Source: Kiritimatiellia bacterium (GTDB taxonomy: Bacteria; Verrucomicrobiota; Kiritimatiellia; RFP12; UBA1067). Taken from it: 51,301 nt of DNA. The stretch covers positions 1-51,301 of the forward strand of contig JAGBTH010000029.1 of the NCBI GenBank assembly GCA_017631385.1, written 5' to 3'. Each line of letters opens with the position of its first letter. The stretch's first letter is position 1. Both the position numbers and the translations under genes were made by a program. Below the pieces are notes generated by a model. The model did not search any database. It saw only the letters and a list, made by a program, of their open reading frames with translations, and had not been told where the DNA came from. This document shows positions 12,116 through 51,033 of this stretch, in pieces.

Positions 12116-12159
12116 ATTGAAGATTTTTAAGAGGTGAAGGTGAAAGGTGAAGGTGAACA

Positions 12160-12588: not shown

Positions 12589-13377
12589 ACCTACCGTCTT
12601 AATTCCTAAATTTCTTAGCTCTTCGTTGCGACGCTCCCAGACGTCCATGAACTCGTCTTCGCCGAGGGTATCTTTAGCTTTTTCAATTTCTGACTTAATC
12701 CGTTCATAGATTGCAATCTCCGCGTCTTGGCGTTCGGTGAGGCGTTTACCGTAGTCGACGATTGTGCCGCCTGCTGCGATATATTGCCGCGCTTCGTCTT
12801 TCATACCCTCGACCATCGCCTTAATCTGCTGCGCTTCAGGGGAGTCAGTAGGATTTATCTCGCACTTTGAATTTATCGCAGCTTCAAATTCTTTAAGCGA
12901 AGTATTGCGCTGACCAGCCTTAACGCCTGGTATTGCGAATGAAGCTAAGAACCTATCACCTTCGAGTGTGAAGACGTCCGCCCAACCTGTGCGAATACCC
13001 TTAGCTACGATAGCTTCATCGCCAAATACCTGACGACGCGTTTTATCGACATTCGCCAAGTTCGCATAGGGATTACTCTCAGCCTTACCTAATGATTCTT
13101 TGGTACTCTCAGGCGCGTTGGTTGCCGCACTCTTGCTTCCGCTTAAGTAGGCTACAACTCCTACACCAAGCGCAACAAACGCCACCAGAGCCGCTACAAA
13201 GCGCTTTCTAAGGCCACGAACCTCGCCGTTAGCTTTAGAGCCGTCAGCAGCGACCACTTTAATCGCTTTTATGCCGCGTTTACGCAATTCAGCGAACACC
13301 TCTTCTCTCGAAGAGGCGTTCGTTGTGTCTTCATGACGTATTCCGTCACTCGACTTATATGCGTAAGTGTATTTCAT
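12580..13377 (-). CDS. Single-pass membrane protein with a GspF-N-like domain (cassette 2 gene 5)
   Basis: 265 aa, paralog of 10106..10897 (MKYTYAYKSSDGIRHEDTTNASSREEVFAELRKRGIKAIKV...). Confidence 0.8.
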   Translation of the reverse strand: MKYTYAYKSSDGIRHEDTTNASSREEVFAELRKRGIKAIKVVAADGSKANGEVRGLRKRFVAALVAFVALGVGVVAYLSGSKSAATNAPESTKESLGKAESNPYANLANVDKTRRQVFGDEAIVAKGIRTGWADVFTLEGDRFLASFAIPGVKAGQRNTSLKEFEAAINSKCEINPTDSPEAQQIKAMVEGMKDEARQYIAAGGTIVDYGKRLTERQDAEIAIYERIKSEIEKAKDTLGEDEFMDVWERRNEELRNLGIKTVGLE

Positions 13378-18906: not shown

Positions 18907-19605
18907 TCAGATTTCTTTGCGCTTAATCCGCTTTAGGATGTTACGTTGGAAATTTCGCTGACCACCGAAAAAGCGATTTTCAGATTTCGTCAATTCGCCC
19001 CCATCCTGGAGCCTAACTTCGATCAGGCGAACTGTACATATCAAATCCGCGACCTGAAGTAATTTATACGAATCCTGACGTACCCCCTGAGCAAATTCGA
19101 GCGGACTCGGTAGATTCTTAGTAAAGACCTCTTCTAATAATCTACTCACCTGCTTCTGGCCTGCATCGTAATAAATCTTTACTTTATCTATACACTCAAA
19201 CAACTCTCGATGTTCTTCAATAAAATCGACAAGCTGCCCCATAAGGCGATCAAAAACCTGCTGTGTCGTATTGATGAATTTAGTATCAACTCCAATGCAG
19301 TGATATTTGAAATCAACCTTGCGTACAAACGTCATCATTCGATCGAGAATCTTACCACGCATTGGACGGCTCATTGCCGCGTATTCATCTTCCTGTCGAA
19401 TCAATGGCCCCATATGAAATCTGAAGGAATCCGAATCAAGACCAAGATCATAATTTGAGCGATTCAACTCTTTTACATACTGTGAAATATCAGCTGTCTG
19501 ATCATGAAAAACAAGCGTCACAATACAATAGCGAGCAGGATCGTCAGGGTCTCCAAAGTTCCCTGATTCATCAACAAAGACGCTCAATATGTTTTGATTG
19601 CTCAT
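18907..19605 (-). CDS. DUF3800 family protein
   Basis: N-terminal VFVDESGNFG and C-terminal LLQVADLICTV are the two hallmark motifs of DUF3800. Confidence 0.7.
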   Translation of the reverse strand: MSNQNILSVFVDESGNFGDPDDPARYCIVTLVFHDQTADISQYVKELNRSNYDLGLDSDSFRFHMGPLIRQEDEYAAMSRPMRGKILDRMMTFVRKVDFKYHCIGVDTKFINTTQQVFDRLMGQLVDFIEEHRELFECIDKVKIYYDAGQKQVSRLLEEVFTKNLPSPLEFAQGVRQDSYKLLQVADLICTVRLIEVRLQDGGELTKSENRFFGGQRNFQRNILKRIKRKEI

Positions 19606-31700: not shown

Positions 31701-33588
31701 AGTCTTCCGTCGAGAAAGATAAGAGGCGCTTAATTTCAGGAATGATCCTTTTATCGAGAGGCTTGCCGTCCTTGGTAAGTTCATGCGCGAGCTGATCTAC
31801 CGCGATACCATGACGCCTTACTATTTCCTGCAACGGTTCTTCTACCCAACCTTCAGTAATACCGACTCTTAAGCCCTCGGTGATATACTTACTCATGAAG
31901 TTCTTAGCATACTGTCCAAATGTCCCTTCCTGCAAGCTTCGCCGCATAGCGTTAAACCCAAGAGACTTTAATTCCGCTTTCGTAAGTGACGACTCCAACC
32001 CAGGAATAACGAGATGCTCGATTCTATCGTTAATTAGTCCCACCCATAAGGCAGTCCATACAGACTCCTCACGGCTTACACCTGCGAGAGTGGCAGCATC
32101 AATATACTCCTGAGCGAATGACGAAAAGGCGCTACCTCTCGCTACAAGCCAAGCGGCATCTAATCCACCCTTCGCAGCGGAATACGCCGTTCGCATTCTT
32201 TTAAGTTGCTGAAGTTCTCTTGTATACTTATCTACAGAAATCAACAACCTGTTGATGGTTTCATTAGTATACTTTGATCCCCCTGCCATGGGAGAGAGGC
32301 GGCTAAATAAAGAGACATTGAGCATATCCTTTAAGGCCGCAGTCTTAGCAGCTTTCTTAACGTCGGCTAAATTGTCGATAGCGGCGATAGTCTTTGAGAC
32401 CTTACCTCCCTTTGTCGCTATCTTACCCGCGCCACCGTATGGAATAATCCAATGTACATTTTCCATAAATACCTGGTAAGCCTCACCTCCAAAGCTTTGA
32501 GCATCAGGTAATGACTGCTGTTCGTAAAGTTTCGCCTGTTCAATAAGATTATAAGCTTTATAGAAGTCTTCACGCTCCTTAGCATCAAGCTCGATTTTCG
32601 CCCAGGCTCCGATTGCGGTATCTTTAGCTAATCCATATAAGTCAGTACCAAGTGAGACAATAGACTGCTGAAGACCATATAGACCCATCTGAAATCTATC
32701 GCCCATCGTGCCGGTCGAGAAGTCTGTTTCGATGCCAAGAATACTACCCTTCTTTAAGTCTCCTCTCATCTGCGCGAATGTAGTCATAACCTTTAGACGC
32801 TCTTCCTCCTCAAGCGCCATGAGACCGTCGACATCGAGCTTTCCCTCAGCATAACTCTTAGCTAAGATATAACCCGCTAAGTCAGAAATATCTTGAACCA
32901 TCGTTAAGTATCTTACGAGCGGCTCACGCTTAGCGAGTTTAAGCTCATAGTCCCTAATTACATCAGCTTCATACTTGCGCTTCTCTTCATCGTTCATGCC
33001 GTTATAATGAAGAGTTCTTTGAGTCTTCTCTACGAGCTTACGCCCTTCGGGGTCTTTATCCTTCATGAGGTTATACCCTAAATCCTGCGTAGCGCACGTA
33101 GCTACAACAATCTCGCCCAATGTCGGCCCGCGCTCACCGTTTAAGGTGCTTGCTACCTTATTAAGTTTAGATTCACGGTCACGCGCATACTTAAACTTTT
33201 CTTCCCATGTCTTTTTACGCCACTCTTCAGCCTCAGGATCTTCAATAAGCCTATACTCCCCCTTAAAAAAGCGCCGCAATAACTCTACATTATTGCGCAT
33301 ATTATCAGACTTTCTTTTGCCGAAAAAGCTGCCGTCTTTATCTTCCATTCCCCATACGCCGCCGGTGACGCTTCGATAGAGAGCCGCTACTCCCTCATCC
33401 GTAAGACGCGAAATGTCAGTTTCAAAAAGCATATCGACGCTCGCTTTCCTGAGCGCCTTTGCTTCAAGCTTACTTTGATCCGCTTCAGTGCGGGTATAAT
33501 AATTTATCTGCGGCTCTCTAAGCCCGGTCTCATAAACCGTAGGCTTTCTTTCATTTAGACGCTTCTCCAGATTTTCCTTCTTGAACAT
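19756..33588 (-). CDS. Giant (about 4610 aa) polyvalent internal-virion/ejection protein in the gp16 position
   Basis: Uninterrupted 13.8-kb ORF. Start chosen at the ATG at 33588, preceded by AAGGAG; the track start at 33627 is also possible. Multiple enzymatic motifs are listed as sub-features. The C-terminal third contains hydrophobic segments. Confidence 0.85.
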   Translation of the reverse strand: MFKKENLEKRLNERKPTVYETGLREPQINYYTRTEADQSKLEAKALRKASVDMLFETDISRLTDEGVAALYRSVTGGVWGMEDKDGSFFGKRKSDNMRNNVELLRRFFKGEYRLIEDPEAEEWRKKTWEEKFKYARDRESKLNKVASTLNGERGPTLGEIVVATCATQDLGYNLMKDKDPEGRKLVEKTQRTLHYNGMNDEEKRKYEADVIRDYELKLAKREPLVRYLTMVQDISDLAGYILAKSYAEGKLDVDGLMALEEEERLKVMTTFAQMRGDLKKGSILGIETDFSTGTMGDRFQMGLYGLQQSIVSLGTDLYGLAKDTAIGAWAKIELDAKEREDFYKAYNLIEQAKLYEQQSLPDAQSFGGEAYQVFMENVHWIIPYGGAGKIATKGGKVSKTIAAIDNLADVKKAAKTAALKDMLNVSLFSRLSPMAGGSKYTNETINRLLISVDKYTRELQQLKRMRTAYSAAKGGLDAAWLVARGSAFSSFAQEYIDAATLAGVSREESVWTALWVGLINDRIEHLVIPGLESSLTKAELKSLGFNAMRRSLQEGTFGQYAKNFMSKYITEGLRVGITEGWVEEPLQEIVRRHGIAVDQLAHELTKDGKPLDKRIIPEIKRLLSFSTEDLKTYLLTVEDMLPGSVAFGVTSVPGQLVRRRVRNALGKKLTGLNNYDEGIINLYQREMDVRRSIEEAWRMSDERRRKTDEGGEGAGVKGEESGVSQEQEENKREVEVMDALTRARTIYEEDDGQSDIVFRLAEEMRVDVKTAEAVAQLLEEEEETARFDPRARSMVDQFFSGVRINESTIESLLPGYIKGSFEADEERGIYVARVRVGRKSDEGWIKKGQKTIVYRRQDGVFFNADGSINEVELSKAAALDSTLGVSYDERVRANGNNARTWGELSDAERRREALMVVNGYTGGSGTIAMRRKDGTEVSVSADAIINLATGRLGDIGYGMAARQSTVRHETFHALWKFAKEIVTEEEQKRLASGLGIDTNSEGWEGRLDEAMAHQMEEYASGHYVVNSMSTAFERFQAWAAKVFGSMGVNEVRDATSKSRETIIGQMMGEGRSFNLRSFYDAVLAGKLGSGELGIDKIVVRDQGSGIRDQKEGMRKDDELPIAPAKEDVSPHPSSPIPHPSDSSDPRSPIPDTSKITRPEWDKGDYVIKRVPKKSYKIHAKLEVVNIFDGIRTSWSEGFDAANQGRDITSDDSHALVEEIAADPDYSKGGRVMEFTGSGAPLVSPTGDVLDGNHHMRGLQLAYERGGEKIERFKAQVLEEAKERGLEVSEHAAEAPIIICRFVSVEVKEGERVPTIAEIAEDTNDTVQRGLNVFETAAKDARILISKNLIPLFQIDPETGLIKDEEEKKSGGAAVNPIGVFRQLSRAQGIVDDDGHITEEGQKRLMNGILAALLGGTNPKVVQAIMEKQIHLDMENEMRALMRLAPELLKLVSDPAKKEYDLRPDILEALTWYQEWRNQDEDARAKAGKNKTEWRKNKSRPTAWVNYKGDMFSKPGPAASILGDLFAASQELRSFQSDGESDTKAGRKRAQDLIIKEIEAYLKNVYATNTDTADLLGDFTPPTKDEILTTQREKSGFYSVSLWHGSGANFNTPDLSYLGSGTGFAAQGNGFYLTDRKVDAEYWGHVAAGYGYFAPSHNTIIAKLGKFFSPVYLYQFKYDGDEMSFIDSQGPNPDAAQRVQEIVAMMGWKAPENFFRDETRTTGIRIETYLKRVVKEDGESLTKLEMADVMIRAGIDGTKEYAGEGLGNIFVVYNTGKLTSLHKWRNGKQMYSVGMRKYVPRAATQEEFDFVEKRFGTTSDYTHAQWLLPSGKVPTPVMIKGGIGEFPSHEGLINLIAREDSESNMGSYLDVLGGGAVRIKSGEGIEVARRPTEAQFDTLYDVIERNKELAEDSGEESIYVDVDNEVGETLFTATYTLKTSTGKILSDLKAWYDKGVMPESGASVVTGEMYSTARRKPLKSAGDIADYSYYYIFNHRGFDWFNKLDEQISIWAIQLDNRDIPMGAPTPIFLGTMNHINMHPREMLKTAIRWGAPKVAFIRTEPIRQSSYGEIKEIEDIKWIKEAAEFLDIKFHSWSILRSDGAFRDVNDKPFDDVAPSRGWVLPPKGNSKKARLFFPDAGYEVESLVDWDEYTSLDNSRFSIGARKRAEYSRLIGKHRPDLEESKIEKILDIINGYENTKKEKLAVHWTITGAIILPQDEFKIDKAIFTSERAKVDPFKFKNPEDIFIQFPQHLPKEKPIDPDTVSALSNKTILPNGLVVYDVDETEEITEEAKALLDSGVSERYLEVELGTIRRPVGQLAMRQIINTHWGKDASPWCLLQGDGYGNLTKHSYQYWHHYAAIPKKVAFRNGKLLAFMATDASDMTLEQADKWDQFFEPWRDEYYNAHTGLNEINWLRHTHPEVDLSKILPSVVAEEWWDREDKSHEGIPITGVIPGDELGRMGVSEYINGIWRSVGKLWKGNRTNGKYEEWSSPEQRCEVSNWKNGKLEGDYWTWWSHGGVRSYAKYKSGKPVGDLIIYDMEGRISRREKYDENGKMIGPTLHFWDNSISLYREYVDDERVKRILSFFEDGEISSYRLYGEDREHYELSVDFQPGVSYPNKVFFREGDKRYRVRFSAENISAVTIGNDDGSAVEISYHDSGKITKIMETDSNGDIVNFKSWWHDENGNWSQVLGLFADKTTFRFSSEGKAVGIGRAATEEESNRKPEPMVTNEELGRMYPAIKGLEGMIKSRLAQVERERQEVIEKADKERGGIELPKFSVRLHRAKRDSVLLPKSAIAQMELDLYAERSEIKSERKKVMVDEAQKYTNFIKDYRPIMEDAFLRGNWKAALDFAEKHSMPIASNVLKDYYREPEFNTTELIGLSVKSIEDAAAILMTARSPFIESTKAIYLDRRRRILDAKILTIGQVGQAMIRKGTVLRNMPAKTAYVIFSHNHPSGVPSPSKPDKALTTSIKHELKAVGVKLLDHIITDGTKYYSFNYQCTMDAPENVVQPEWEVISGISQKTKSFRDISQVKDLINNFLRDDGESGHVIYLNSHNVSIGVRRIPAYEKFGGTLEEWVKIATLGAEDSAGVSALIDIGPGQYVPSKVKKIIKAISPAFAVRGVTIMDAFFEFDTEIRSARGSMSSEWESLAKNEYPETTEDLFNYPKYSIASRKLDWDSLPASLEKVVTSTSVQHLTGQDKEPEKYELFKFYRDRYMLNEARPMVDRWLKKEESKWLAKYLLAKYYGDIENALEVVKHRFSRNRIPVLKDFVDFTKPVKWVYVRNDDGKRTNRLPEAYAILLADAFGGEVETDIMKVSDERNTGATLKERVSREFQFAGKVEKGFQYVIVDDVWTTGQTTVSLMEYIIREGGVVSAVTTLATAANGARIKPTERLLQRVIEKGRINSVESANKFLGIDLRKATGSELQAYIVKGTAGVFGIQDWFSNAAPSLALDFASKGVARRGEGDSKAPSGIASNRDLFGHLSKEERRKVTTKPTQGAFQFSTSFPRLSEMDDDSLIAAALASRLALDKKDRMNSALKFDTVMKMVKKAHPTMSGDELRSRALAVQGETLKIARNIRSGLDKGVSESAILKALNDSLKPKFMSEMRREGREGAKVGAFGAKAEAMFERRTAEVMDEAVRVEAGIESDVFEAWAGVDFTETLLNALHNKFTDERGVLGKKTKKEDEEEADTSSTATGAEGEEEKKKKSLNVETMENPKVFAEYVRDLAAKYWREKHGLPEGANPWMNRLAIQFLRKTAANIYKKLVKSIMYSQSRDTAFKQILKLENIPTERGILSQMTYIGEIIHARHIREKREELCKKLEQLLKKEFGATGRFKPDKEELKRKVTAEAELRARYMLHAMWLTPEAASNEASELSRELTSMALEYEEAGRELEQSRIYVETIRKLSILREFGALKYKTPGEIESALRYWEELAQGARGKVLEAMEEREGRTKAAAAVFAKAFFNPRSSHAVEKGFNQALGNYLMGHMGFASLLEDMMRFSAEGDKTQALELVNYLMREIQKAGDRSASEMRRHGDDFHEAVEKIYRMSFKKVMSEMNREDLRFEKFMGLKGGKRVMPTKGRAMQLLVSLLQGEKEGSHYFENVKKWGRKGQASEIARLLSAEDMNLINWLGKWYEVNRKELSDISETLFGIGVYSEAANYFPVKMLLEKQGLEKVEGVSWTIFPKALTPRVFNLRDFDTSQDIFAIWASRMEEAAQWKGHAKLGLELRGIFGRSMLQETIVASHGNRANQLVLGFITDILSGHGAYDRTTNGIEWVSDQIRGWTALCALGGNVGVTFKQTTSIPAFGFEIGLVKTARYVVEAFTPAGMEAMKKLFASEQRKTRWQVGNTEAVKNALAKNDAGWFKRFMQASMITNKIGDLVPGLVVGQGIYRDCIARGMSEENAMAETWMIIERTQQSGRMENQTSVQRRNRLGRMMYQFLTTQQQYLQYEVKAIRAMIADPSLKNAGKVANTVILNHFILSSLYYWMGELYKAMLGSEPPEDQIADWVVGCLLGPYNSLFVLGFCCKATLDRFLKGSWAASRNDMVPMESFVKRTIGDSARVMEAVFDEERTTDELIDAIADLAAGLNPIVRDARRVSENLEEDEE
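23430..23800 (-). other. ComF/type-I phosphoribosyltransferase-like domain
   Basis: RNTGATLKERVSREFQFAG...QYVIVDDVWTTGQTTVSLMEYIIREGG, with the PRPP-binding loop VDDVxTTGxT at 23521-23547. Confidence 0.65.
24600..24900 (-). other. RadC-like JAB/MPN metalloprotease domain with an intact motif
   Basis: AYVIFSHNHPSGVPSPSKPDKALTTSIKHELKAVGVKLLDHIIT, with HNHPSG at 24721-24738. Confidence 0.75.
25470..26190 (-). other. MORN / YwqK-like repeat region
   Basis: Repeated G(K)xxGxxxxW/Y units: NGKYEEWSS...NGKLEGDYWTWWSHGGVRSYAKYKSGKPVGDLIIYDMEGRISRREKYDENGKMIGP... Confidence 0.5.
27380..27500 (-). other. Degenerate (probably inactive) RadC-like JAB domain
   Basis: GTMNHINMHPREMLKTAIRWGAPKVAFIRTEP follows the RadC pattern G(T)...VHPREVFK.A...A..vil.HNHPSG, but with the metal motif replaced. 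Confidence 0.35.
28500..28810 (-). other. PARP-like (H-Y-[EDQ] clade) ADP-ribosyltransferase domain
   Basis: SLWHGSGANFNTPDL...GNGFYLTD parallels PARP catalytic LWHGSRTTNFAGIL...GKGIYFAD. The third catalytic position is uncertain (YLYQFKYD). Confidence 0.55.
29760..29920 (-). other. ParB/sulfiredoxin-like domain motif region
   Basis: GDVLDGNHHMRGLQLAY (motif at 29815-29841) resembles the DGxHR box of ParB N-terminal domains. Confidence 0.45.
30133..30290. repeat. Nested inverted octamer-repeat structure lying in frame inside the giant gene
   Basis: GGTATCAGGTATCGGGGATCGGGGATCAG plus GGGATGAGGTATGGGGGATGAGGGATGAGGGG (30133-30203), opposed by CTCATCCCCTC (30248-58) and CTGATCCCTGATACCTGATCCCTGATCCC (30262-90). 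Translated as ...RDQGSGIRDQ...SPHPSSPIPHPSDSSDPRSPIP... Confidence 0.85.
30520..30730 (-). other. Zincin-like metallopeptidase motif region of the giant protein
   Basis: VRHETFHALWKF, with HExxH at 30673-30687, and downstream acidic EAMAHQMEEY. Confidence 0.55.
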
Positions 33589-35248
33589 TAAGATTCTCCT
33601 TTGCTTTATAATTTCTTTGAATATCAATTAAATCCTGAACTCTCGCGCTGCGATTCGCGTTGAAATCACCTACGAACCAATCGGTTTTCATCTTCGATAT
33701 TACCTTTTCCATCGCCTCAGGACGATAAACCTCAGAATCCAACTCCTTTAAGGTTCTTAAAAACGATTCTCCAAGCTCAAATAACTTCCAGCCCCTAATC
33801 CGCTCCGACTCAGCGGGGACTAAAAAATTAACCTGACCAAACGCCTTTTGTGAACTTGCTGGAACATACCCTTCTTTATCAAGTTCTCCCGTATAACCGA
33901 AAGCGGAATAGAACATTCTCATCGCCCGCGCTTCCTGTTCGGTAAGATTGGTTTTAAGTCTCCTCCCGAAAGTTTGTGCGAAACTATCCGAAACCTTCCC
34001 CTCAATCATAGCGGCCTTATATTCACGCCAAATTTCAGCCTGGTCAGTTGCAATCTTCTGCGGATCGTACGTTCCTTCAGCCTGACAAAACATATTCCAC
34101 GTCAACCTACGCGAAAGCTCTTCTTCAAAGTGGCCTTGCTTGGCGCGTTCAATCTGATTATCCTTCTTCTCTAAAGCGTCCTTAATTCTCGTATAGGTCT
34201 CTAAATACTTTAAGGCTACCTCAGGGGCTAACTTCCGTAACTCCACATCATCGGCCATCTTCTTATATTCGAGCATATACTCACTATCAGGTAAGTCCTT
34301 ACCCATCAAATCAAGCTCGAACTGTACGCACTTCGCTTTTAGTGCGTCTCTATCCTTTTTTAGCTGATGCTCTTTTTCGCCTATTTTCCCTAACTTCGCA
34401 TCCTCCACCTTCTTTATGAGTCCTTTCATAAAATCATCTGGCAAGAGCTTTGTACTTACCTGAACAGAGGTAAGTTCACCCTTAAGAGAGGGTAAATCTT
34501 TTAAGTACGTCTCAGGATCTTCCTTAAGCCTCTTAAGAATAGCGTCAAAATGAACTTCCTCCGTTGCCCCGCGAAGGTCAAACAACACCAAATCCGCGTA
34601 TCTCGAGAGCGCCCAATCGCGGATGTACGCCTCGCGCTCGGGACCCGACCACTCCGTATGAAGATTCATCGCGTGATTTCTATTCTGTATCGCCCTTTGA
34701 GCGGATGTATTATTCATCGCCCCCATCGCCCAATCAAGCGAATCGCTCTTAACAAGCTCATCAGCGGCGCGAATCGAAGAGGCTCTTAACTCACGCGCCT
34801 CTTGCTGCATTAAAGAGCCTAAAAGAGTATCTCTTTGAGGCGCGAGCATAAGCTTAAGGCGGTTTTGGTGCTCTTCGGACTTTTCGCCCGCAATAGCTAT
34901 CATATCATTTTCAAAAGCCTCTCCCGCCTCCGCAGATACACCGTCTGCGCCAACACCCTGGCGATGAACATAACCGTTTTTAGGGTTTGTCATTCTTTGG
35001 CGCCAAATCTTTTTTATTTCGGTAGCGTCTATGGCAAGTTCTCTATCTTCCTTCTCTTTCTTTATCGCGGCTAAATCGACGATTAGATTCTGAAACCCGC
35101 GCCCAATATCGCGCCCAAACCCCGCGACACTTTGCCCTAACTTTGCCGCCGCATGAGCGCTCGATTGTAAATCAGGTAATTCTACTTTTCTTACCTCACC
35201 TAAATTACCGAGGCTTACGCGTCTTCTTGTATAGTCCCCTGTACCCAT
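33551..35248 (-). CDS. Internal virion protein (gp15-position)
   Basis: 565-aa helical protein between the gp14-like and giant genes. Assigned by synteny only. Confidence 0.5.
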   Translation of the reverse strand: MGTGDYTRRRVSLGNLGEVRKVELPDLQSSAHAAAKLGQSVAGFGRDIGRGFQNLIVDLAAIKKEKEDRELAIDATEIKKIWRQRMTNPKNGYVHRQGVGADGVSAEAGEAFENDMIAIAGEKSEEHQNRLKLMLAPQRDTLLGSLMQQEARELRASSIRAADELVKSDSLDWAMGAMNNTSAQRAIQNRNHAMNLHTEWSGPEREAYIRDWALSRYADLVLFDLRGATEEVHFDAILKRLKEDPETYLKDLPSLKGELTSVQVSTKLLPDDFMKGLIKKVEDAKLGKIGEKEHQLKKDRDALKAKCVQFELDLMGKDLPDSEYMLEYKKMADDVELRKLAPEVALKYLETYTRIKDALEKKDNQIERAKQGHFEEELSRRLTWNMFCQAEGTYDPQKIATDQAEIWREYKAAMIEGKVSDSFAQTFGRRLKTNLTEQEARAMRMFYSAFGYTGELDKEGYVPASSQKAFGQVNFLVPAESERIRGWKLFELGESFLRTLKELDSEVYRPEAMEKVISKMKTDWFVGDFNANRSARVQDLIDIQRNYKAKENLNVQEGKSGEASK

Positions 35249-44726: not shown

Positions 44727-45818
44727 TTATGCCGCGAACGGATCGACGAGCGACTCCTTAACCTGCATAGCGTCGGACTCACGTACAGGAATATCAAAGA
44801 GCGTAGTGACGTTAGCGCGTCCCAAATACTCCTTAACCTCCATCGCACGTCCGCGAACCTGGCTTTCAATCATCGCCTTAATATTCTTCTTCATCGTGCG
44901 ATCCATATACCAAGCGCAGCGTCCACCTTCGCGCTTAACCGATTCGGACATAAGCGAAATAAGGTCGACAAAGCGATCACGCTTCGCACGATTGGAGTCA
45001 AGAAGCATAAGGTGACGCGAAATATTGCAGATACGCCCACCCGCGTTAACATCACCGCATGCAAGACCCATCTGCCAGTAAAGCTCACGCTCGAACGTCT
45101 TGATATTAGTTCCCGGCTTCTTCGGGTCAGGCATTTCAGACTCGACCATCTCATCTACGTCAATGCCGGTCGAAAGCCCCTGCGGATGGCAACCCGTCCA
45201 ACCTTCGCGTCCCCACGATACGAGATAGATGGAGCCGACGTCAGCAGCTGCATTATCACCCTCAAAGACAGCTCCGTTAAAGACGGTCGAAGCCGCTTTC
45301 ATATCGTCAGAGCAAAGTACGCTCCCGTCGCGCCCATCAAAGCCGTAGCGGGAATACGCTTTTTCAAGGCCGTTAAAGCCTTTCGGGTTATCTCTGAGCC
45401 TACCGTAAATAACCATCTCCTCCATCGCAAGGCGCATACCGCGCATTGTCTTGGTGAGACGCTCATCGACCAGCTGATCGGCATGCAGCTTACCGCGCTT
45501 CTTCGCATCGCGGAAAAGCTTACGCGGAATGACGAGCTTTGTACCCATCATGGCGCACTTAACCTGATACGAATCGCTGGAGGTCTTGCCGCCTCTCAAG
45601 CCTTCGTTGTACCCTACCCACTCAGGCCAGGGTATTTCTGTTTCCACTTTGACGGTCATGGCGCTTCCATCGTCGCACTCCAGGATCGTCATATCGTCGC
45701 ACATCGGCGTATGTTTAGCCAATTTGTCGACGACTTTCATGACGAAGTTATCGCCAATCTCACGGTTCTTCAAGAAGTCCATGAGCGTGAACGCTTCTTC
45801 GCCCTGTATCGTTTGCAT
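44727..45818 (-). CDS. Major capsid protein (HK97-fold candidate)
   Basis: 363 aa following a scaffold-like gene. Size and position are typical, but there was no search. Confidence 0.7.
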   Translation of the reverse strand: MQTIQGEEAFTLMDFLKNREIGDNFVMKVVDKLAKHTPMCDDMTILECDDGSAMTVKVETEIPWPEWVGYNEGLRGGKTSSDSYQVKCAMMGTKLVIPRKLFRDAKKRGKLHADQLVDERLTKTMRGMRLAMEEMVIYGRLRDNPKGFNGLEKAYSRYGFDGRDGSVLCSDDMKAASTVFNGAVFEGDNAAADVGSIYLVSWGREGWTGCHPQGLSTGIDVDEMVESEMPDPKKPGTNIKTFERELYWQMGLACGDVNAGGRICNISRHLMLLDSNRAKRDRFVDLISLMSESVKREGGRCAWYMDRTMKKNIKAMIESQVRGRAMEVKEYLGRANVTTLFDIPVRESDAMQVKESLVDPFAA

Positions 45819-47033: not shown

Positions 47034-48809
47034 TTATGCCCCCAATCCTGTTGCGGCTCTTGCAAGCGGAGCTAAGAGCCTGTCTTCTGTTATTTGTGTA
47101 TTACCAAGCTTATTTACCACATCTGCGCCCCTATCGAGTATCTCGGCGTTCTGCGCCGTCTGCGCGGCCTCCTGGCGCTTCGTGCGCGTAGCCTCGACAA
47201 TCTTATTGTCAATCATACACTCTGTAGGCACATTAAGAATTTCAGCCATTCTTAAGTTAATCTGATCAGCATTAACTATATCAGCGGGATCGTTTATGGG
47301 ATCCTGCTTTAATTCCTTCGTAACGGCTACATTCTGTAACCAAGCCTGAATACCGTTCATCTCAGCTAAACGCCGTGCCTGATGAATATTAGATACATAT
47401 TCTGGAGAGACGACCTTAACCATCTCGCCTATAATCGCGATAGTGTTATCATCAATCGGCGCTACCTTCGCTTTAATAGCCCATCTCCAGATTGTATTTA
47501 CGAGGATATTAAGAAACTCTACTTCGCAGTTCGATACCATCGCGCCAAGCTTCTGCATACCTTCAGCTTTAGCGTAATTGATCTGCGTCGCTGTTACCTT
47601 ACCCATACTATCCCGAAATAGATCCATCGCGGTAAACGCATCAATGTAAAATAGCGTCTCAAGTTCTGCCTTAGCGATTATCTCGCAGTTTCTCGTATCT
47701 TCCATTGAGGGAGGATTGGGCAATACCGGCACAACAAAGCCCTGGCGCTGCTCGCCCATGCGGGTATAGTTTATATCGCCTCTACCGATACCAATACCGT
47801 CTTCCTTAAATTCACTTGAAACTATAAGAGCGGGCTGTGCCTTATCGCCTGAAATCTTATATTCATCATACCTGAACGACTGCAAACCACGCGCGAGATC
47901 CAAGCCGTCGAGACCTAAGCCGCGACCATATACATCGCCATATTCGCAATCAAGGCGAGGAGCGATAATGGGATTTACATCATACCCGTCTACTGCGAGA
48001 ACTCCCCTATGAGAATCATTCTCATTCTTTGATCCTCCGTCCACCCAATATATCGAGCGCCAGAGACATTCATCGGATAATTCGCAAGCCGAAGATACTA
48101 CATCAAATTCACGCTCTTTACCGACGGTATTAGGCTCAATGAGATTCCATACTACAATATGCTTCTCACTACCAGCTTTTGCTGCTTCTCGAATCCATTT
48201 AGGAGTATTATCGACTCCAAATTCTTTTATAATATCTAAGGGCTTCCAAGCGAACTTTCGAGCTACGCTGCATACTCTGCCGCTCTTACCTATATCGAGC
48301 GCGTATGTGCCAGGGCGCAAGGTATACGCCTCAATAATCTCTCCTGAATCTTCCTCGGCTGCCGCTATGAGCATACACCCGAAGCCGTTTACGAGATAGT
48401 GCATAAAGAGACGGTAAATGGCGCTATAGACGTTTGAACGCGCCATTAAATATCTCGCGCCCTCGGTAAGCTTCTCTAATGCGAGCTTACGCTCACGCGA
48501 TATACCATCCCTTAGAACCTTAGGTACTGAAAGATAAAACCAAGGTTGGCCTTTGCTCGTTAAGTTCTGAAGCATTCCCGCCGCCGCTTTTCTCGCGGTC
48601 ATAATAGGTAGAGTCGTTAATACCCGATGATCATCATCGTGATACCCTTTATCAGCGAGAGACTCTACCCCCTTCTCCCATCCCGCCTTGCCGAGCGGAT
48701 AAAACTCCGTCGCTACAGCGAGCATATCTTCGCGAAGAGGCGCTAACCGCGCAAACAGCCTTTTAGCTGTTTTCGAGCTGTGGTCTAATATTATCTTATA
48801 ATCTCTCAT
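47034..48809 (-). CDS. Portal (head-to-tail connector, podovirus type)
   Basis: 591 aa. GKVTATQINYAKAEGMQKLGAMVSNCEVEFLNILVNTIW matches the portal (M)TATE(V)...LGP...L..E.L.P pattern. First gene of the structural block. Confidence 0.75.
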   Translation of the reverse strand: MRDYKIILDHSSKTAKRLFARLAPLREDMLAVATEFYPLGKAGWEKGVESLADKGYHDDDHRVLTTLPIMTARKAAAGMLQNLTSKGQPWFYLSVPKVLRDGISRERKLALEKLTEGARYLMARSNVYSAIYRLFMHYLVNGFGCMLIAAAEEDSGEIIEAYTLRPGTYALDIGKSGRVCSVARKFAWKPLDIIKEFGVDNTPKWIREAAKAGSEKHIVVWNLIEPNTVGKEREFDVVSSACELSDECLWRSIYWVDGGSKNENDSHRGVLAVDGYDVNPIIAPRLDCEYGDVYGRGLGLDGLDLARGLQSFRYDEYKISGDKAQPALIVSSEFKEDGIGIGRGDINYTRMGEQRQGFVVPVLPNPPSMEDTRNCEIIAKAELETLFYIDAFTAMDLFRDSMGKVTATQINYAKAEGMQKLGAMVSNCEVEFLNILVNTIWRWAIKAKVAPIDDNTIAIIGEMVKVVSPEYVSNIHQARRLAEMNGIQAWLQNVAVTKELKQDPINDPADIVNADQINLRMAEILNVPTECMIDNKIVEATRTKRQEAAQTAQNAEILDRGADVVNKLGNTQITEDRLLAPLARAATGLGA

Positions 48810-48831
48810 ACGGCTGTTTGGCGGTTATCTT

Positions 48832-48906
48832 AGGGATGAGGGATGGGGGATGAGGGATGAGAGAAGATAAAGGGATGAGGAAAGAGGGATGAGGGATGAG
48901 AGAAGA
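48832..48906. repeat. G-rich arm (GGGATGAG-type octamers) left of the second four-helix-bundle gene
   Basis: agggatgagggatgggggatgagggatgagagaagataaagggatgaggaaagagggatgagggatgagagaagaa. Largely complementary to 49283-49389. Confidence 0.85.
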
Positions 48907-48924
48907 ATTTGATATAATAATGAA

Positions 48925-49281
48925 ATGAAAACAGATGCAATGTACAAAGAGTTGATAGTTTGGCAGCAGTCAATGGATCTTGTAGACATAATCTACAAAT
49001 TGATAAAGACTTTCCCAAAGACAGAAAACTACCGACTATGTGACCAACTCTCACGAGCAGCAGTTTCGATACCCTCAAACATTGCCGAAGGGAATGGACG
49101 CGGTACAAGACAGGACTACGCACGATTCCTTTCAATCGCGAGAGGCTCATTGTACGAAACAATGACGCAAGTCGAGATAGCCAGAAGACAAGGCTACATT
49201 GATGACATTTCAGAGATTGAATCACTCGCTGACTCAATCCGTCGAATGTTAAACTCAATGATTCATAAATTATCATCTTAA
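48925..49281 (+). CDS. Four-helix-bundle protein, 23S rRNA intervening-sequence protein family (second copy)
   Basis: YKELIVWQQS...CDQLSRAAVSIPSNIAEGNGR...FLSIARGSLYETMTQVEIARRQGY. Antisense to the phage operon. Confidence 0.85.
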   Translation: MKTDAMYKELIVWQQSMDLVDIIYKLIKTFPKTENYRLCDQLSRAAVSIPSNIAEGNGRGTRQDYARFLSIARGSLYETMTQVEIARRQGYIDDISEIESLADSIRRMLNSMIHKLSS

Positions 49282-49282
49282 C

Positions 49283-49389
49283 TCTCCTCTCATACCTCAT
49301 ATCTCATCCCTCATACCTCTTTTCTCATACTTCTTCCCTGCGGCGTAGCCGCTCCCCTCTCATCCCTCATACCTCATCCCTCATCCCTT
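49283..49389. repeat. C-rich arm (CTCATCCC/CTCATACC octamers) in two blocks split by a GCGGC-GTA-GCCGC mini-hairpin
   Basis: tctcctctcatacctcatatctcatccctcatacc...ctctcatccctcatacctcatccctcatccc. Confidence 0.85.
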
Positions 49390-49597
49390 ATCTTCCCCCA
49401 AGCGTCGAGTTACCAGAATTCTGTGACGCGCTTGAATATCGGCGATAAGTCTGACTTATCCCTCTCAGACGCTCTCGCTCCTGGGCTTGAAGAAGCTGTG
49501 CGCTCTCGTTATCTGCCGCTATGGATTTTGCAATAGCCGGAGTTACAGACGGCTCTGGTGCCGCTGTTGCGACTCTGCTACTTGAACCTTTACCCAT
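49388..49597 (-). CDS. Small phage protein (69 aa from MGKGSSS)
   Basis: The track ORF is trimmed because its N-terminal 26 residues are translated from the repeat arm. Confidence 0.45.
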   Translation of the reverse strand: MGKGSSSRVATAAPEPSVTPAIAKSIAADNESAQLLQAQERERLRGISQTYRRYSSASQNSGNSTLGGR

Positions 49598-49603
49598 GGC
49601 TTT

Positions 49604-49640
49604 AGAGGGATGAGGGATGAGTAAAGAGGGATGAGAGAAG
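49604..49640. repeat. G-rich arm of a gene-less stem
   Basis: agagggatgagggatgagtaaagagggatgagagaag, complementary in type to 49735-49799. Confidence 0.8.
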
Positions 49641-49734
49641 ATGCTTACGCACCATCTTGTTACTCTTAAGGACACTTTCGTTTTTCATGTTTATTCCTCC
49701 TATGATTTTATAAATTCGCGTTTTGCTCTCACGG

Positions 49735-49799
49735 CTTTTCTCATCCCCCATACCTCATACCTTCCAAAACTCCCCTCTCATCCCTCATACCTCATCCCT
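49735..49799. repeat. C-rich arm of the gene-less stem
   Basis: cttttctcatcccccatacctcataccttccaaaactcccctctcatccctcatacctcatccc, followed by small GC hairpins (TGCGCC-AAA-GGCGCA and GCCGC-GTCA-GCGGC). Confidence 0.8.
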
Positions 49800-49944
49800 G
49801 CGCCAAAGGCGCAAGCCGCGTCAGCGGCACTATTATCTCATAGGTTTTTTACAAGTTTCTTTTAATGTCTTTTTAAGTTCCTTTGGCTTCTCTTGGTGTC
49901 TCTTTGTGAGTTGAAAATAATAGGGAGAAAGTGTTTGACAGAGG

Positions 49945-51033
49945 TTAAAGATTAGGTATCGCATTCACTGCCATTCTAAGCGAATCTACGTTTTCGTGGT
50001 AATAATGCCGCGTCATCGCTGTAGACTCATGACCGACGATAGATTGTACGATGTGTAGCGGAACTCCTGCATTTGCAGCGAGTGAAACGAATGTATGGCG
50101 GAGTGAGTGAAATGTTGCCTCTGGTGTTTTTCTGCTACGCCCCTCAAGTAGTATCGAGGTTGTAATATTAGCTGAATCGAATATCTGAGCTATCCCCTGA
50201 CTTATTTTCCATCGAGCGCCAGTATAATCATTAGCTATTTCGGGAATAACAAAAACTCCCCTTTCAGCCTCTGGAATCTCAGAGAGTATTTCCCGTAAGG
50301 CTGGATGCAAAGGAATCGTTATTGGCCTACCGTGACTATGGCGCTTAGTCTTTCTTGGGATAAGCTGGATAATCCCTGATAGCATATTAACGCTTCTCCA
50401 TTCAAGGCGGCAACAGTCCCCAAGACGAAGCCCGGTATAAACTCCGATAGTAAAGAGAGTCTTCCACTCTTTACCCTTTAGTTCTGCGCATAGCATAAGA
50501 CGCTTTAATTCCTCTACAGTCAACTCTCTACGGCTATGAGAATCATCAGGGCGAAGCTTAACGCCTTCCCACGGATCTTCGTCGATGCCGGCTTTCTGCG
50601 CGAGGATATGGAAAATCTCACGTAATACACATACGCGATTATTATATGTTGACGCGCAATGATCGACGCGAAGACACGCGAGATACTCCGCTATAGCGTC
50701 ATGAGTAATTCCTGCTAAGTCATTTACTTCAAGATGATTCTCCTCCATCCACTTAGCAAAGTGCATCCAAACAACACGCTTTGCTGTCATTGTAGAGGGA
50801 GCGAGTTCGTTGCGGTTAGGCGACTTAATATACTCAAGCCATACCTCCGCTAAGGGTAAGCGGCGCTCCCCCAAGCCAAACGGAGCTAAGAACTTTTGCA
50901 AAAACCTCTCTGCCTTAGCCTTATCTCTTGTTCGGGTTGATCGAGAGAAGCGTTTACCGTTTATGCAGACTCTCATAGTCCAACGACCGCTTTTCTCTTG
51001 TTGTAGGTTACCCATACCTTTTTCTCGTGCCAT
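49945..51033 (-). CDS. int: Phage tyrosine integrase
   Basis: N-terminal arm-binding-type domain (GRWTMRVCINGKRFSRSTRTRDKAKAE). Catalytic region TGLRLGD...HSLRHTFVSLAANAGVPLHIVQSIVGHESTAMTRHYYH. Confidence 0.9.
   Translation of the reverse strand: MAREKGMGNLQQEKSGRWTMRVCINGKRFSRSTRTRDKAKAERFLQKFLAPFGLGERRLPLAEVWLEYIKSPNRNELAPSTMTAKRVVWMHFAKWMEENHLEVNDLAGITHDAIAEYLACLRVDHCASTYNNRVCVLREIFHILAQKAGIDEDPWEGVKLRPDDSHSRRELTVEELKRLMLCAELKGKEWKTLFTIGVYTGLRLGDCCRLEWRSVNMLSGIIQLIPRKTKRHSHGRPITIPLHPALREILSEIPEAERGVFVIPEIANDYTGARWKISQGIAQIFDSANITTSILLEGRSRKTPEATFHSLRHTFVSLAANAGVPLHIVQSIVGHESTAMTRHYYHENVDSLRMAVNAIPNL

What the first reader, a model, noticed from the sequence alone, without database searches (positions are those of the whole stretch)
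48832..49389. Second IVS-like 4HB element inserted antisense inside the phage late operon, 22 nt upstream of the portal start
Seen: the 4HB gene 48925..49281 lies on the plus strand between two minus-strand phage genes (49388..49597 and portal 47034..48809). It is bracketed by a G-rich arm (48832-48906) and a C-rich arm (49283-49389) built from GGGATGAG/GGTATGAG units that are largely complementary. The arm sequences differ from those of the first 4HB copy (GGTGAAGG type), yet the architecture is identical. Inference: any transcript running from the upstream phage genes into portal must contain a long stem-loop. The element may therefore act as an intervening sequence that is processed, or as a transcriptional/translational insulator of the structural operon. 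Finding it inside a prophage supports mobility.
Basis: partly seen in the sequence, partly recalled or inferred. Interest (0 to 1): 0.65.

Follow-up and report, generated by a model that had tools for sequence, protein, structure and literature searches.

The report
IVS-type four-helix-bundle cassette in a prophage
A small gene of the "23S rRNA intervening-sequence protein" family, enclosed by two complementary arms of 7-base repeats, was inserted between two phage genes just upstream of portal. The same gene-plus-arms design recurs across many bacterial phyla, which suggests a widespread and barely described kind of insertion cassette.

Summary
48925..49281(+) encodes a PF05635/TIGR02436 four-helix-bundle (4HB) protein (E 1e-38). 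It is bracketed by a G-rich heptamer arm (48832-48906) and a C-rich arm (49283-49389). The arms pair in RNA of either strand (z about -10).

It is an insertion. Five related phages have the small upstream gene abutting or overlapping portal, with nothing between them. These empty sites include the 92%-identical sister of a phage that carries a different 4HB element, with GTGCATC arms, at the same junction.

The design is general:
- 47 of 78 4HB loci from many phyla have inverted arms (period 7 or 14 in 33 of the 42 long enough to score).
- The unit sequence is element-specific.
- The 5' arm is G-rich in 42 of 47.
- The element is usually co-oriented between co-directional genes (34 of 43). Here it is antisense.
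- The canonical Coxiella 23S IVS shares the design and is cut by RNase III.
- Xanthomonas GGGAATC repeats, published as unexplained, flank its 4HB gene between accB and accC.

Best reading: an IVS-type cassette outside rRNA whose stem is processed, or at least insulates. RNA cleavage, 4HB function and the mobility mechanism are untested. It is a new variant of a known kind.

The parts
48825..48831 (.). Left copy of the 7-nt direct repeat TTATCTT that borders the element (candidate target duplication, ambiguous)
   Evidence: Read. The identical heptamer recurs at 49388-49394. It is ambiguous because its reverse complement AAGATAA is also part of the 39-nt arm unit (48865-48871).
48832..48906 (+). 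G-rich arm: two 39-nt units made of AGGGATG-type heptamers. It is the 5' arm in the 4HB sense.
   Evidence: period 7 x 9.3 copies, period 39 x 1.9 copies with 91% matches, G 49% and C 1%. It contains TGA every 7 nt, so all three frames are closed.
48913..48918 (+). TATAAT hexamer 6 nt upstream of the 4HB ATG (possible -10 box, unproven)
   Evidence: Read. The consensus scan found no complete sigma-70 promoter on the + strand.
48925..49281 (+). 4HB gene, 118 aa, of the 23S rRNA intervening-sequence protein / S23p family. It is antisense to the phage late genes.
   Evidence: PF05635 E 1e-38 and TIGR02436 E 1e-38; PDB 2GSC E 6.5e-27; Avd equivalog 20.8 bits against a cut-off of 80.
49283..49339 (+). 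C-rich arm, inner array (CTCATAC/CTCATCC units), starting 1 nt after the 4HB stop codon
   Evidence: pairs with 48871-48909 (39 nt, 79%).
49340..49352 (.). GC mini-hairpin GCGGC-GTA-GCCGC embedded in the C-rich arm
   Evidence: Read. A like hairpin (GCGGCTTCGCCGC) sits at the same end of the unrelated-arm element in L004, and two more lie next to element 2 (49799-49828).
49354..49389 (+). C-rich arm, outer array. Its last bases overlap the stop codon of the small phage gene.
   Evidence: 49357-49388 pairs with 48832-48863 (32 nt, 94%).
49388..49597 (-). Conserved 69-aa phage gene (ends ...NSTLGGR*). In relatives it abuts or overlaps portal.
   Evidence: Alignment of orthologues from L001, L002, L004 and L090. 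Empty junctions are shown.
47034..48809 (-). Portal (head-to-tail connector) gene. Its ATG is 22 nt beyond the arm.
   Evidence: PF12236 E 3e-54. It is a distant relative of phiV10/epsilon15-type connectors.
49604..49806 (.). Element 2: an ORF-less arm pair of the same GGGATGA type (G arm 49604-49641, about 84-nt loop, C arm 49726-49806), lying between integrase and the small gene
   Evidence: z -4.4. It is absent from close strains in two metagenomes, where contigs join 49598 to 49831 through 32 other bases.
30131..30295 (.). Element 3: an ORF-less arm pair (GGGATCA/GGTATCA/GGGATGA units) lying in frame inside the 4623-aa ORF
   Evidence: z -3.75. It sits in the linker before a ddrB-ParB domain.
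12040..12601 (+). First 4HB element: 5' arm 12040-12159 (GGTGAAGG type), gene 12160..12564, 3' arm 12531-12601
   Evidence: 62 Watson-Crick pairs over about 75 nt.

Best explanation
The finding is an IVS-type 4HB cassette located outside rRNA. It consists of a PF05635 (S23p / 'four helix bundle protein') gene held in the loop of a long stem, and the two strands of that stem are complementary arrays of tandem 7-nt units.

It entered this phage lineage by insertion exactly at the junction between a small conserved gene and portal. In relatives those two genes are contiguous or overlapping, and probably translationally coupled.

Because the arms are reverse complements, RNA made in either direction has a G-rich 5' arm and a C-rich 3' arm that close into an interrupted duplex of about 75-100 bp.

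The most likely working principle is that of the rRNA intervening sequences. The duplex is a substrate for RNase III, so a late-operon transcript would be cut in the stem between the small gene and portal. That would remove the foreign (here antisense) insert from the message and leave both cistrons intact, as at the natural intercistronic RNase III sites of T7-like phages. The 4HB gene would be read from the opposite strand on its own, for instance in the lysogen.

Secondary, inferred properties:
- Heptamers that contain TGA or TAG close all three reading frames at the entry to the element.
- 'G-rich arm first' may avoid exposing a C-rich, Rho-loading stretch before its partner is made.
- Tandem units let the stem survive slippage.

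Shown: the identity of the gene, the arms and their pairing, the insertion status, the generality of the design, and the existence of ORF-less derivatives.

Inferred: RNase III cleavage, expression of 4HB, what 4HB does, and how the element moves.
For: Identity and stem.

Insertion:
- The portal tree interleaves occupied sites with empty ones. Occupied: window/L088 with GGGATGA arms, L003/L004 with GTGCATC arms and a 54%-identical 4HB, and L089 with GGGATTA arms. Empty: L001, L002, L090, L091, L092.
- L090 is 92% identical to L003 in portal, yet has TGATG stop/start overlap.

Same design in the experimentally characterised IVS:
- The Coxiella 23S IVS has the S23p ORF in the loop, a 28-bp terminal stem and tandem GACAGAT heptamers of variable number upstream of the ORF.
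- RNase III cleavage in the stem was mapped there by RACE (PMC4990558).

Generality, from 78 loci of many phyla:
- 47 loci have flanking inverted arms at z >= 5.
- The period is 7 or 14 in 33 of 42, and 8 in 6.
- The 5' arm has G > C in 42 of 47.
- The arms abut the ORF (median 24 nt before the start, 3 nt after the stop).
- Neighbours are co-oriented in 34 of 43.
- None of the loci is in rRNA.
- Arm units stay related only when the 4HB proteins are at least about 74% identical.

Stop triplets are enriched in 5' arms: all three frames are closed in 20 of 47, against 5 of 47 in shuffles.

Tolerance in an essential operon: the Xanthomonas citri, X. campestris and Lysobacter 4HB gene sits between accB and accC. 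Its GGGAATC arms start 6-7 nt after the accB stop. In both Xanthomonas the 3' arm ends at the accC ATG; in Lysobacter it ends about 9 nt before it.

ORF-less derivatives and polymorphism: elements 2 and 3 in the window, the absence of element 2 from close strains, and arm-only short-loop copies with 3-5x depth over the arms in related metagenomes.
Against: - There is no RNA evidence for this element.
- Mismatches in the arms show no strand-specific G-U excess: 132 sense against 129 antisense, with 440 other mismatches, in 47 elements. Complementarity may therefore be kept by DNA-level homogenisation or recent origin rather than by selection on one RNA.
- The stems are interrupted (79-94% per segment).
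- In Coxiella the ORF appears unexpressed and decaying. Here, and in most loci, it is intact, so the protein probably does something the IVS model does not explain.
- The antisense orientation is atypical for the family (1 of 43).
- No complete promoter or terminator was detected for 4HB.
Confidence: 0.55

Rival explanations
1. A REPIN/RAYT-like DNA-level system. In this reading the heptamer arrays are the cognate repeats of each 4HB lineage. The 4HB protein, a ring-forming relative of the nucleic-acid-binding Avd, would bind or maintain them and promote their dispersal as ORF-less hairpin doublets. The RNA stem would be a by-product.
For: - The architecture parallels RAYT genes flanked by inverted REPs with many ORF-less doublets (established knowledge).
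- ORF-less pairs of the same GGGATGA type as the resident 4HB element occur in the window and are multi-copy in the same metagenomes.
- In Xanthomonas the arm unit of the 4HB gene (GGGAATC) is the genome's dominant heptamer, with 186 sites and 70 inverted pairs (PMC4692102).
- Arm units co-diverge with the protein.
- There is no strand bias in wobble pairs.
- No target duplication longer than 1 nt is seen at the L003/L090 junction.
Against: - 4HB has no recognisable nuclease or transposase motif and no PADLOC or other catalytic-family match.
- The same GGGATGA unit flanks a very divergent 4HB in L102, so unit and protein are not strictly paired.
- Orphan arrays of other units have no cognate 4HB in the window.
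- No binding data exist.
Confidence: 0.2
2. A moron-like accessory gene with built-in insulators. In this reading the arms are not cut. They act as a bidirectional barrier that stops ribosomes (periodic stop codons) and impedes read-through or antisense interference. The base of the stem brings the upstream stop and the downstream start close together, so that coupling between the small gene and portal is kept.
For: - The element is absent from relatives and sits between conserved late genes on the opposite strand, as morons do.
- Arms begin at or within a few nt of the upstream stop and end at or near the downstream start, here and in many loci.
- Stop triplets are enriched in 5' arms.
- In L102 the upstream gene ends at a TGA inside the arm.
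Against: - No T-run terminator and no consensus promoter were found.
- About a fifth of arms (9 of 47) contain no stop triplet in any frame, for example GTGCAGG and GGATCGT units.
- Long perfect-ish dsRNA is normally an RNase III substrate, and the homologous rRNA element is cut.
Confidence: 0.15
3. A G-quadruplex / i-motif regulatory repeat. The GGG-N4 arrays would act through four-stranded structures in DNA or RNA, and the 4HB gene would merely be nearby.
For: - The left arm has seven G3+ tracts spaced by 4 nt.
- Oligonucleotides of like heptamers (GGGAATC, GGGGAYT) form G4s in vitro (PMC4692102).
Against: - Many arm units cannot form G4s, for example CAGATGC, TTAGTAG, GGTGAAG, GTGCATC.
- The invariant feature is complementarity of the two arms around a 4HB gene, not G-tracts.
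Confidence: 0.05
4. The accessory protein (Avd) of a diversity-generating retroelement carried by the phage.
For: There are weak matches to bAvd (E 3e-4) and to the PHROG 'Avd protein of DGR' (E 4e-10).
Against: - The Avd equivalog scores 20.8 bits against a cut-off of 80, and bAvd 21.6 against 40.
- The neighbours are portal, a 69-aa gene and integrase.
- No reverse transcriptase domain was found in any ORF tested.
Confidence: 0.02

Closest known systems
S23p-encoding intervening sequences of 23S rRNA (Coxiella burnetii, Leptospira; PMC4990558)
   Same: - Same protein family in the loop.
- Terminal complementary sequences close a stem around the ORF.
- Tandem heptamers of variable copy number lie in the stem-forming region upstream of the ORF.
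- Regarded as a selfish insertion.
- RNase III cleavage in the stem has been shown for that element.
   Different: - This element is not in rRNA. It lies between protein-coding phage genes and is antisense to them.
- Its arms are much longer (75-107 nt against 28 bp).
- Its ORF is intact, whereas the Coxiella ORF is decaying.
- Processing has not been demonstrated here.
G-rich heptameric intergenic repeats of Xanthomonas (GGGAATC) and Nostoc (GGGGAYT) (Rehm et al. 2015, PMC4692102)
   Same: - Tandem G-rich heptamers, often in convergent (inverted) pairs between co-directional genes.
[quoted passage not shown] This is the same polarity found here.
- They are transcribed.
   Different: - They were described as unexplained G4-forming simple repeats with no link to any gene.
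- Here the arms enclose a 4HB gene. The Xanthomonas 4HB gene (the XCC0516 family) is itself flanked by GGGAATC arms between accB and accC.
REPIN-RAYT systems
   Same: - A gene flanked by inverted copies of a lineage-specific repeat.
- The repeat also exists as dispersed ORF-less doublets in intergenic regions.
- Repeat and gene co-diverge.
   Different: - RAYT is an HUH tyrosine transposase, whereas 4HB has no catalytic signature.
- REPs are single imperfect palindromes, not tandem heptamer arrays.
Avd of diversity-generating retroelements (bAvd, PDB 4DWL)
   Same: A homologous four-helix-bundle fold. The PDB relative (2GSC) forms a pentameric ring.
   Different: There is no RT and no template or variable repeats. 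The scores are far below the Avd family cut-offs.
Intercistronic RNase III sites of T7-like phages and phage morons
   Same: - A structured element between late cistrons that can separate messages without harming them.
- An extra gene, on its own transcription unit, that is absent from relatives.
   Different: - T7 sites are short native hairpins without a gene.
- Morons usually carry a recognisable promoter and a T-run terminator, which were not found here.

Membership tests
S23p-type 23S rRNA intervening sequence (IVS) | The ORF inside the element encodes a PF05635 / S23p four-helix-bundle protein | tested here: met
   PF05635 E 1e-38 over the full model; TIGR02436 E 1e-38; PDB 2GSC E 6.5e-27.
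S23p-type 23S rRNA intervening sequence (IVS) | Terminal complementary sequences form a stem that encloses the ORF | tested here: met
   Inverted repeats of 32 nt at 94%, 33 nt at 91% and 39 nt at 79%. Folds of both strands close with the arms, z about -10.
S23p-type 23S rRNA intervening sequence (IVS) | Tandem heptamer units in the stem-forming region upstream of the ORF (as described for Coxiella) | tested here: met
   Period-7 array, 9.3 copies, at 48832-48900. Compare the GACAGAT repeats in PMC4990558.
S23p-type 23S rRNA intervening sequence (IVS) | Located in helix 25 or 45 of a 23S rRNA gene | tested here: not met
   No Rfam family, including rRNA, matches anywhere in the window. The flanks are the portal gene and a small phage gene.
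S23p-type 23S rRNA intervening sequence (IVS) | Excised from the precursor RNA by RNase III | not testable with these tools
   No RNA run holds the sequence.
Diversity-generating retroelement (Avd accessory gene) | The protein reaches the Avd family thresholds | tested here: not met
   NF033474 scores 20.8 bits against a cut-off of 80; PF22296 scores 21.6 against 40.
Diversity-generating retroelement (Avd accessory gene) | An adjacent reverse transcriptase | tested here: not met
   The neighbours are portal, a 69-aa gene and integrase. No RT domain was found in 26 ORFs scanned against Pfam. Template and variable repeats were not searched for systematically.
MITE / TIR transposon | Terminal inverted repeats | tested here: met
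MITE / TIR transposon | Target-site duplication | tested here: inconclusive
   The 7-nt repeat TTATCTT borders the window element, but its complement is part of the arm unit. The L003/L004 against L090 comparison shows no duplication longer than 1 nt.
MITE / TIR transposon | Presence/absence polymorphism and multiple copies | tested here: met
   Empty and occupied sister sites. Element 2 is absent from close strains, and arm-only copies and raised depth are seen. Logan contigs can mis-join at repeats.
MITE / TIR transposon | A transposase, in cis or identified in trans | tested here: not met
   The only ORF in the element is the 4HB gene. The nearby tyrosine integrase is also present next to empty sites (L002).
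REPIN-RAYT | A gene flanked by inverted copies of a repeat that also occurs as ORF-less doublets | tested here: met
   Elements 1, 2 and 3 share GGGATGA-type arms.
REPIN-RAYT | The gene encodes an HUH/Y1 transposase | tested here: not met
   The gene is PF05635 only.
Phage moron | An extra gene between conserved phage genes, absent from relatives | tested here: met
Phage moron | Its own promoter and factor-independent terminator | tested here: inconclusive
   Only a lone TATAAT at 48913-48918 was found. There is no consensus promoter on the + strand and no T-run terminator after the gene. The host is probably a Kiritimatiellae relative, whose promoter rules the scan may not cover.

The most novel reading that the evidence does not exclude
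PF05635 four-helix-bundle genes with their complementary heptamer arrays form one widespread family of intercistronic cassettes, and the rRNA IVSs are only its first-noticed special case.

On this reading, each 4HB lineage carries and co-evolves with its own 7-nt unit. It spawns ORF-less hairpin doublets, in the manner of REPINs. It settles exactly between a stop codon and the next start codon, even in essential operons such as accBC and in phage late operons. It is neutralised at the RNA level through its stem.

This would explain three things with a single element: the long-noted excess of heptameric simple repeats in bacterial intergenic regions (Xanthomonas GGGAATC, and possibly the cyanobacterial heptamers), the stray '23S_rRNA_IVP' genes seen inside cas operons, and the rRNA IVSs.
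Probability: 0.35. Interest if true: 0.8.

Novelty: new variant of a known kind. Interest (0 to 1): 0.62.

Why it matters
S23p-type IVS elements have been a curiosity of a few rRNA operons for 30 years, with no known function or origin. This window shows the same element type in a different setting: between phage structural genes, on the opposite strand, with clean empty sites in sister phages.

Following it outward shows that 'gene plus complementary heptamer arms' is the normal state of this protein family across phyla. If that holds, it gives three things:
- a testable model for how bacteria and phages tolerate foreign cassettes inside operons, namely stem-directed RNA processing or insulation;
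- a candidate origin for unexplained heptamer repeats;
- a handle on the function of a very abundant 'hypothetical' protein family related to the DGR protein Avd.

For annotation, it also warns that such arms break assemblies. Several related contigs end in them. They can also be mistaken for simple repeats.

Tried and rejected
- Rfam scan of the whole window: no family at gathering score, so no rRNA and no known structured RNA. No tRNA genes either.
- DGR/Avd reading: rejected on family cut-offs and on the absence of an RT.
- Defence-system reading: no PADLOC match for either 4HB.
- Exact-sequence look-up of the window's 4HB protein: not on record.
- RNA evidence: no RNA run holds the element.
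- Test of element 3 as an insertion, through homologues of the giant protein: a 400-aa fragment found no homologue at E <= 1e-10. Laying metagenome contigs over it gave only ambiguous joints.
- 4HB against 50,697 isolated phage genomes (tblastn, E <= 1e-8): no match. This subfamily is therefore not a usual phage gene. A pattern scan of IMG/VR gave only 3 loci.
- Strand-specific wobble test for RNA-level selection: no bias. It does not discriminate between the models.
- Target duplication: ambiguous (see the membership table).
- Arm comparison by eye among the three accB-accC elements (sequences): no compensatory double changes were seen, so it is uninformative.
- Literature: seven full-text searches found no paper linking PF05635 genes in general to flanking inverted heptamer arrays. 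Only open-access papers and bioRxiv are covered, so prior description elsewhere cannot be excluded.
- Pfam and PHROG scans of ORFs in 1-19 kb: almost all without matches.
Full report
WHAT IS THERE

The window reads as a podovirus-like prophage or phage contig. On the minus strand it carries:
- a tyrosine integrase (49945..51033);
- a 69-aa gene (49388..49597);
- portal (47034..48809, PF12236);
- a scaffold/protease-like gene;
- an epsilon15-type major capsid protein (44727..45818, PF20911);
- tail tubular proteins;
- a lysozyme-domain protein;
- a 4623-aa polyvalent-type protein with ddrB-ParB and RadC/JAB domains.

The portal is only about 23-25% identical to connectors of isolated phages. 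Its closest named relative is from a Kiritimatiellae MAG, and the sequence occurs in ruminant gut metagenomes.

Between the 69-aa gene and portal, on the opposite strand, lies ORF 48925..49281. It is a full-length member of PF05635 / TIGR02436, the '23S rRNA intervening sequence protein' or four-helix-bundle family (E 1e-38). XCC0516 (PDB 2GSC) is the nearest solved structure.

THE ARMS ARE REAL AND THEY PAIR

- GGGATGAG occurs 25 times in the window against 1.6 expected.
- The left arm 48832-48906 consists of two 39-nt units built from AGGGATG-type heptamers. It is 49% G and 1% C.
- The right arm 49283-49389 consists of two CTCAT(C/A)C arrays with no G. They are split by a GC mini-hairpin at 49340-49352.
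- Segments of 32-39 nt are 79-94% complementary.
- As RNA, 48815-49400 folds to -232.8 kcal/mol in the phage sense and -212.6 in the 4HB sense. Both are 10 standard deviations below dinucleotide shuffles, and the arms form the closing helix in each.

Two further arm pairs of the same unit type carry no ORF. One lies at 49604-49641/49726-49806, between integrase and the 69-aa gene (z -4.4). The other lies at 30131-30205/30248-30295 (z -3.75). The second is translated in frame within the giant ORF, in the linker just before its ddrB-ParB domain.

The first 4HB copy (12160..12564) is 59% identical in protein and has GGTGAAGG-type arms that pair over about 75 nt.

IT IS AN INSERTION

I fetched the contexts of portal homologues.
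- Empty sites: in L001 (67% portal identity by the alignment), L002 (68%), L090 (70%), L091 (71%) and the distant L092 (42%), the small gene is followed at once by portal. In three of them (L002, L090, L091) the small gene's stop overlaps the portal ATG, read as TGATG in L002 and L090.
- Same element: L088 (99%) has the same GGGATGA arm, and its contig breaks inside it.
- Different element, same place: L003/L004 (71%) carry an antisense 4HB gene at the same junction. Its protein is only 54% identical and its arms are GTGCATC/GTGCTTC heptamers.
- Contig-end case: L089 starts in a GGGATTA array 5 nt before portal.

On the portal tree, L003/L004 pair with the empty L090 at 92% identity. The window lineage is separated from them by other empty lineages.

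The economical reading is at least two, and probably three, independent acquisitions at one junction. The alternative is repeated replacement and loss by recombination. Either way the element is not an ancestral phage gene.

At the L003/L090 junction nothing longer than 1 nt is duplicated. In the window a 7-nt TTATCTT borders the element on both sides. Its complement is also part of the arm unit, so I leave the question of a target duplication open.

Close strains in two metagenomes lack element 2. There, contigs join 49598 to 49831 through 32 other bases that include a Shine-Dalgarno-like AAGGAGG. The same runs hold arm-only copies with 26-29-nt loops, and depth over the arms is 3-5 times higher. 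Logan contigs can mis-join at repeats, so I treat these observations as supportive only.

THE DESIGN IS GENERAL FOR THE FAMILY

A scan of one genome per species with a 4HB alignment returned 80 loci from many groups: Verrucomicrobia, Bacteroidota, Firmicutes, Acidobacteria, Planctomycetes, Patescibacteria, Nitrospirae, Gemmatimonadetes, Proteobacteria and others. For the 78 loci with enough flank:
- 47 have inverted arms around the gene at z >= 5, and 58 at z >= 3.
- The arm period is 7 or 14 in 33 of 42, and 8 in 6.
- The unit differs from locus to locus (GGATCGT, GTGCAGG, GGGAAGA, CTAGGGG, CAGATGC, TTAGTGG and so on).
- The 5' arm has more G than C in 42 of 47. Because the arms are reverse complements, this holds for both strands.
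- Arms end a median of 24 nt before the start codon and begin a median of 3 nt after the stop.
- The element is co-oriented with long ORFs on both sides in 34 of 43 loci, and antisense to both in 1.
- All but one of the 78 loci have open stretches of 300 nt or more on both sides, so none appears to lie in rRNA.
- Stop triplets are enriched in 5' arms (0.096 against 0.061 per position). All three frames are closed in 20 of 47, against 5 of 47 after shuffling.
- Arm units are recognisably related only when the proteins are at least about 74% identical.

In several loci the arm starts at the upstream gene's stop codon and ends at the downstream ATG.

A 21-nt probe from the window's arm found a soil-type contig (L102). 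There, perfect (AGGGATG)4 arms enclose a very divergent PF05635 gene, and the upstream gene ends at a TGA inside the arm. The same probe found short-loop ORF-less pairs (L111, L112).

LINKS TO THE LITERATURE

The Coxiella 23S IVS is described as having:
- an S23p ORF in the loop of a 28-bp terminal stem;
- tandem GACAGAT heptamers of variable number just upstream of the ORF;
- RNase III cleavage in the stem, mapped by RACE (PMC4990558).

That is the same architecture as here.

Rehm et al. (PMC4692102) reported unexplained G-rich heptamers (GGGAATC) at 186 sites in Xanthomonas campestris, 70 of them as convergent pairs. [quoted passage not shown] That is the polarity I measured. The paper makes no mention of a 4HB gene.

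I therefore fetched the Xanthomonas 4HB gene, which belongs to the XCC0516 family. In X. citri, X. campestris and a Lysobacter it lies between accB and accC, flanked by GGGAATC-type arms. The arms begin 6-7 nt after the accB stop. In both Xanthomonas they end at the accC ATG; in Lysobacter they end about 9 nt before it.

Zhang and Ye (PMC3936711) had noted 18 '23S_rRNA_IVP' genes inside cas operons, for example between cmr3 and cmr2. That fits intercistronic insertion.

In seven full-text searches I found no paper that connects the protein family in general with inverted heptamer arms. The library is open-access only.

HOW IT MOST LIKELY WORKS

Shown:
- A 4HB gene sits in the loop of a long stem formed by element-specific heptamer arrays.
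- It was acquired by insertion at a gene junction.
- The same design occurs across phyla, including in an essential operon.
- ORF-less derivatives exist.

Inferred:
- By homology of design with the rRNA IVSs, the stem is cut by RNase III in any transcript that crosses it.
- For the phage late transcript, this would separate the small-gene and portal messages and discard the antisense insert. That is harmless, as at T7 intercistronic RNase III sites (established knowledge).
- The 4HB gene would be transcribed from the other strand. Only a lone TATAAT at 48913-48918 was found, and no consensus promoter or T-run terminator.

Further inferences, each untested:
- A period of 7 is not a multiple of 3, so a unit containing TGA or TAG closes every frame.
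- 'G-rich first' avoids presenting C-rich, Rho-loading RNA before its partner exists.
- Tandem units keep the arms pairable after slippage.

Against a purely RNA-level account:
- Arm mismatches show no strand-specific G-U excess (132 against 129, with 440 other mismatches).
- The ORF is intact in most loci.
- ORF-less copies share the unit of a resident 4HB element.

These points keep a REPIN/RAYT-like, DNA-level model alive. A non-cleaving insulator or moron model also remains possible. The G-quadruplex and DGR/Avd readings are poorly supported (see the rival explanations).

VERDICT

The 'IVS-like inserted element' reading is supported, but its proposed function (processing or insulation) remains untested.

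As a single locus it is a new variant of a known kind: an S23p-type IVS element outside rRNA, antisense in a phage late operon. The wider pattern it exposes is the more interesting result and deserves a systematic study. That pattern is 4HB genes with cognate complementary heptamer arms as a general intercistronic cassette, which also explains published 'orphan' heptamer repeats.

Noticed in passing
window 30131-30295 (inside ORF 19756..33627, minus strand): An ORF-less heptamer arm pair lies in frame inside the 4623-aa polyvalent-type protein. It is translated as a Pro/Ser/Asp-rich linker just N-terminal of a ddrB-ParB domain (aa 1191-1311); a RadC/JAB domain lies at aa 2898-3010. It looks like an in-frame insertion tolerated in an inter-domain linker.
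   Followed up: partly
window 10893-12114: The 5' arm of the first 4HB element (ttggattggagtgagg...ggtgaaggtgaacag) occurs twice as a direct repeat, at 10893-10955 and 12048-12114. The two copies bracket an AbiEii-like nucleotidyltransferase gene (11241..12047) and an orphan C-rich TTCCCTC array (10957-11011). This may be cargo captured within, or inserted into, an arm.
   Followed up: partly
window 49604-49806 and 49799-49828: The loop of element 2 holds a strong Shine-Dalgarno sequence plus ATG and a 28-codon ORF that runs into the C arm. Two GC mini-hairpins sit next to the arm. Close strains lacking the element have an AAGGAGG directly before the small gene's ATG, which the window has lost.
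   Followed up: partly
window 15293-15641: Arrays of 8-9-nt units (ACGCAGAG / ACTTTGCGT) bracket a spacer of about 290 nt that has its own terminal inverted repeat (ttaattaactccga...tcggagttaatt). There is no Rfam match. This may be another kind of hairpin element.
   Followed up: no
window 3843-3867, 15711-15745: Orphan period-7 arrays (TCTTCA-type and ACTAATC) with no complementary partner within 3 kb.
   Followed up: no
window 1-19600: Of the 13 ORFs scanned against Pfam here, only three matched: AbiEii (11241..12047), DUF3800 (18907..19605) and a weak CoiA_N hit (17341..18678). The ten also scanned against PHROGs gave no match. No terminase was recognised anywhere in the window. Integrase sits directly upstream of the small-gene/portal pair, as in L002, whereas the distant relative L092 has a 514-aa gene there.
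   Followed up: partly
L093/L094 (IMG/VR contigs), 1986-2342: A 4HB gene lies in an alternative reading frame inside a 958-aa PglX / type IIG-like methyltransferase ORF, and that ORF stays open right through it. This suggests an insertion into a coding region that is read through as a linker.
   Followed up: partly
L096, L099, L100 (Xanthomonas citri, Lysobacter, X. campestris): The 4HB gene of the XCC0516 family sits between accB and accC in all three, flanked by GGGAATC arms. This indicates long-term residence in an essential operon.
   Followed up: yes
L102 4035-4512: Perfect (AGGGATG)4 arms, the same unit as in the window, enclose a very divergent PF05635 gene (E 4e-19). The upstream DUF4912 gene terminates at a TGA inside the arm.
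   Followed up: yes
L089 1-35: A G-rich GGGATTA array lies 5 nt upstream of portal on the portal sense strand. That is the opposite of the usual 'C-rich before the start' polarity. The contig ends there, so the element cannot be read.
   Followed up: no
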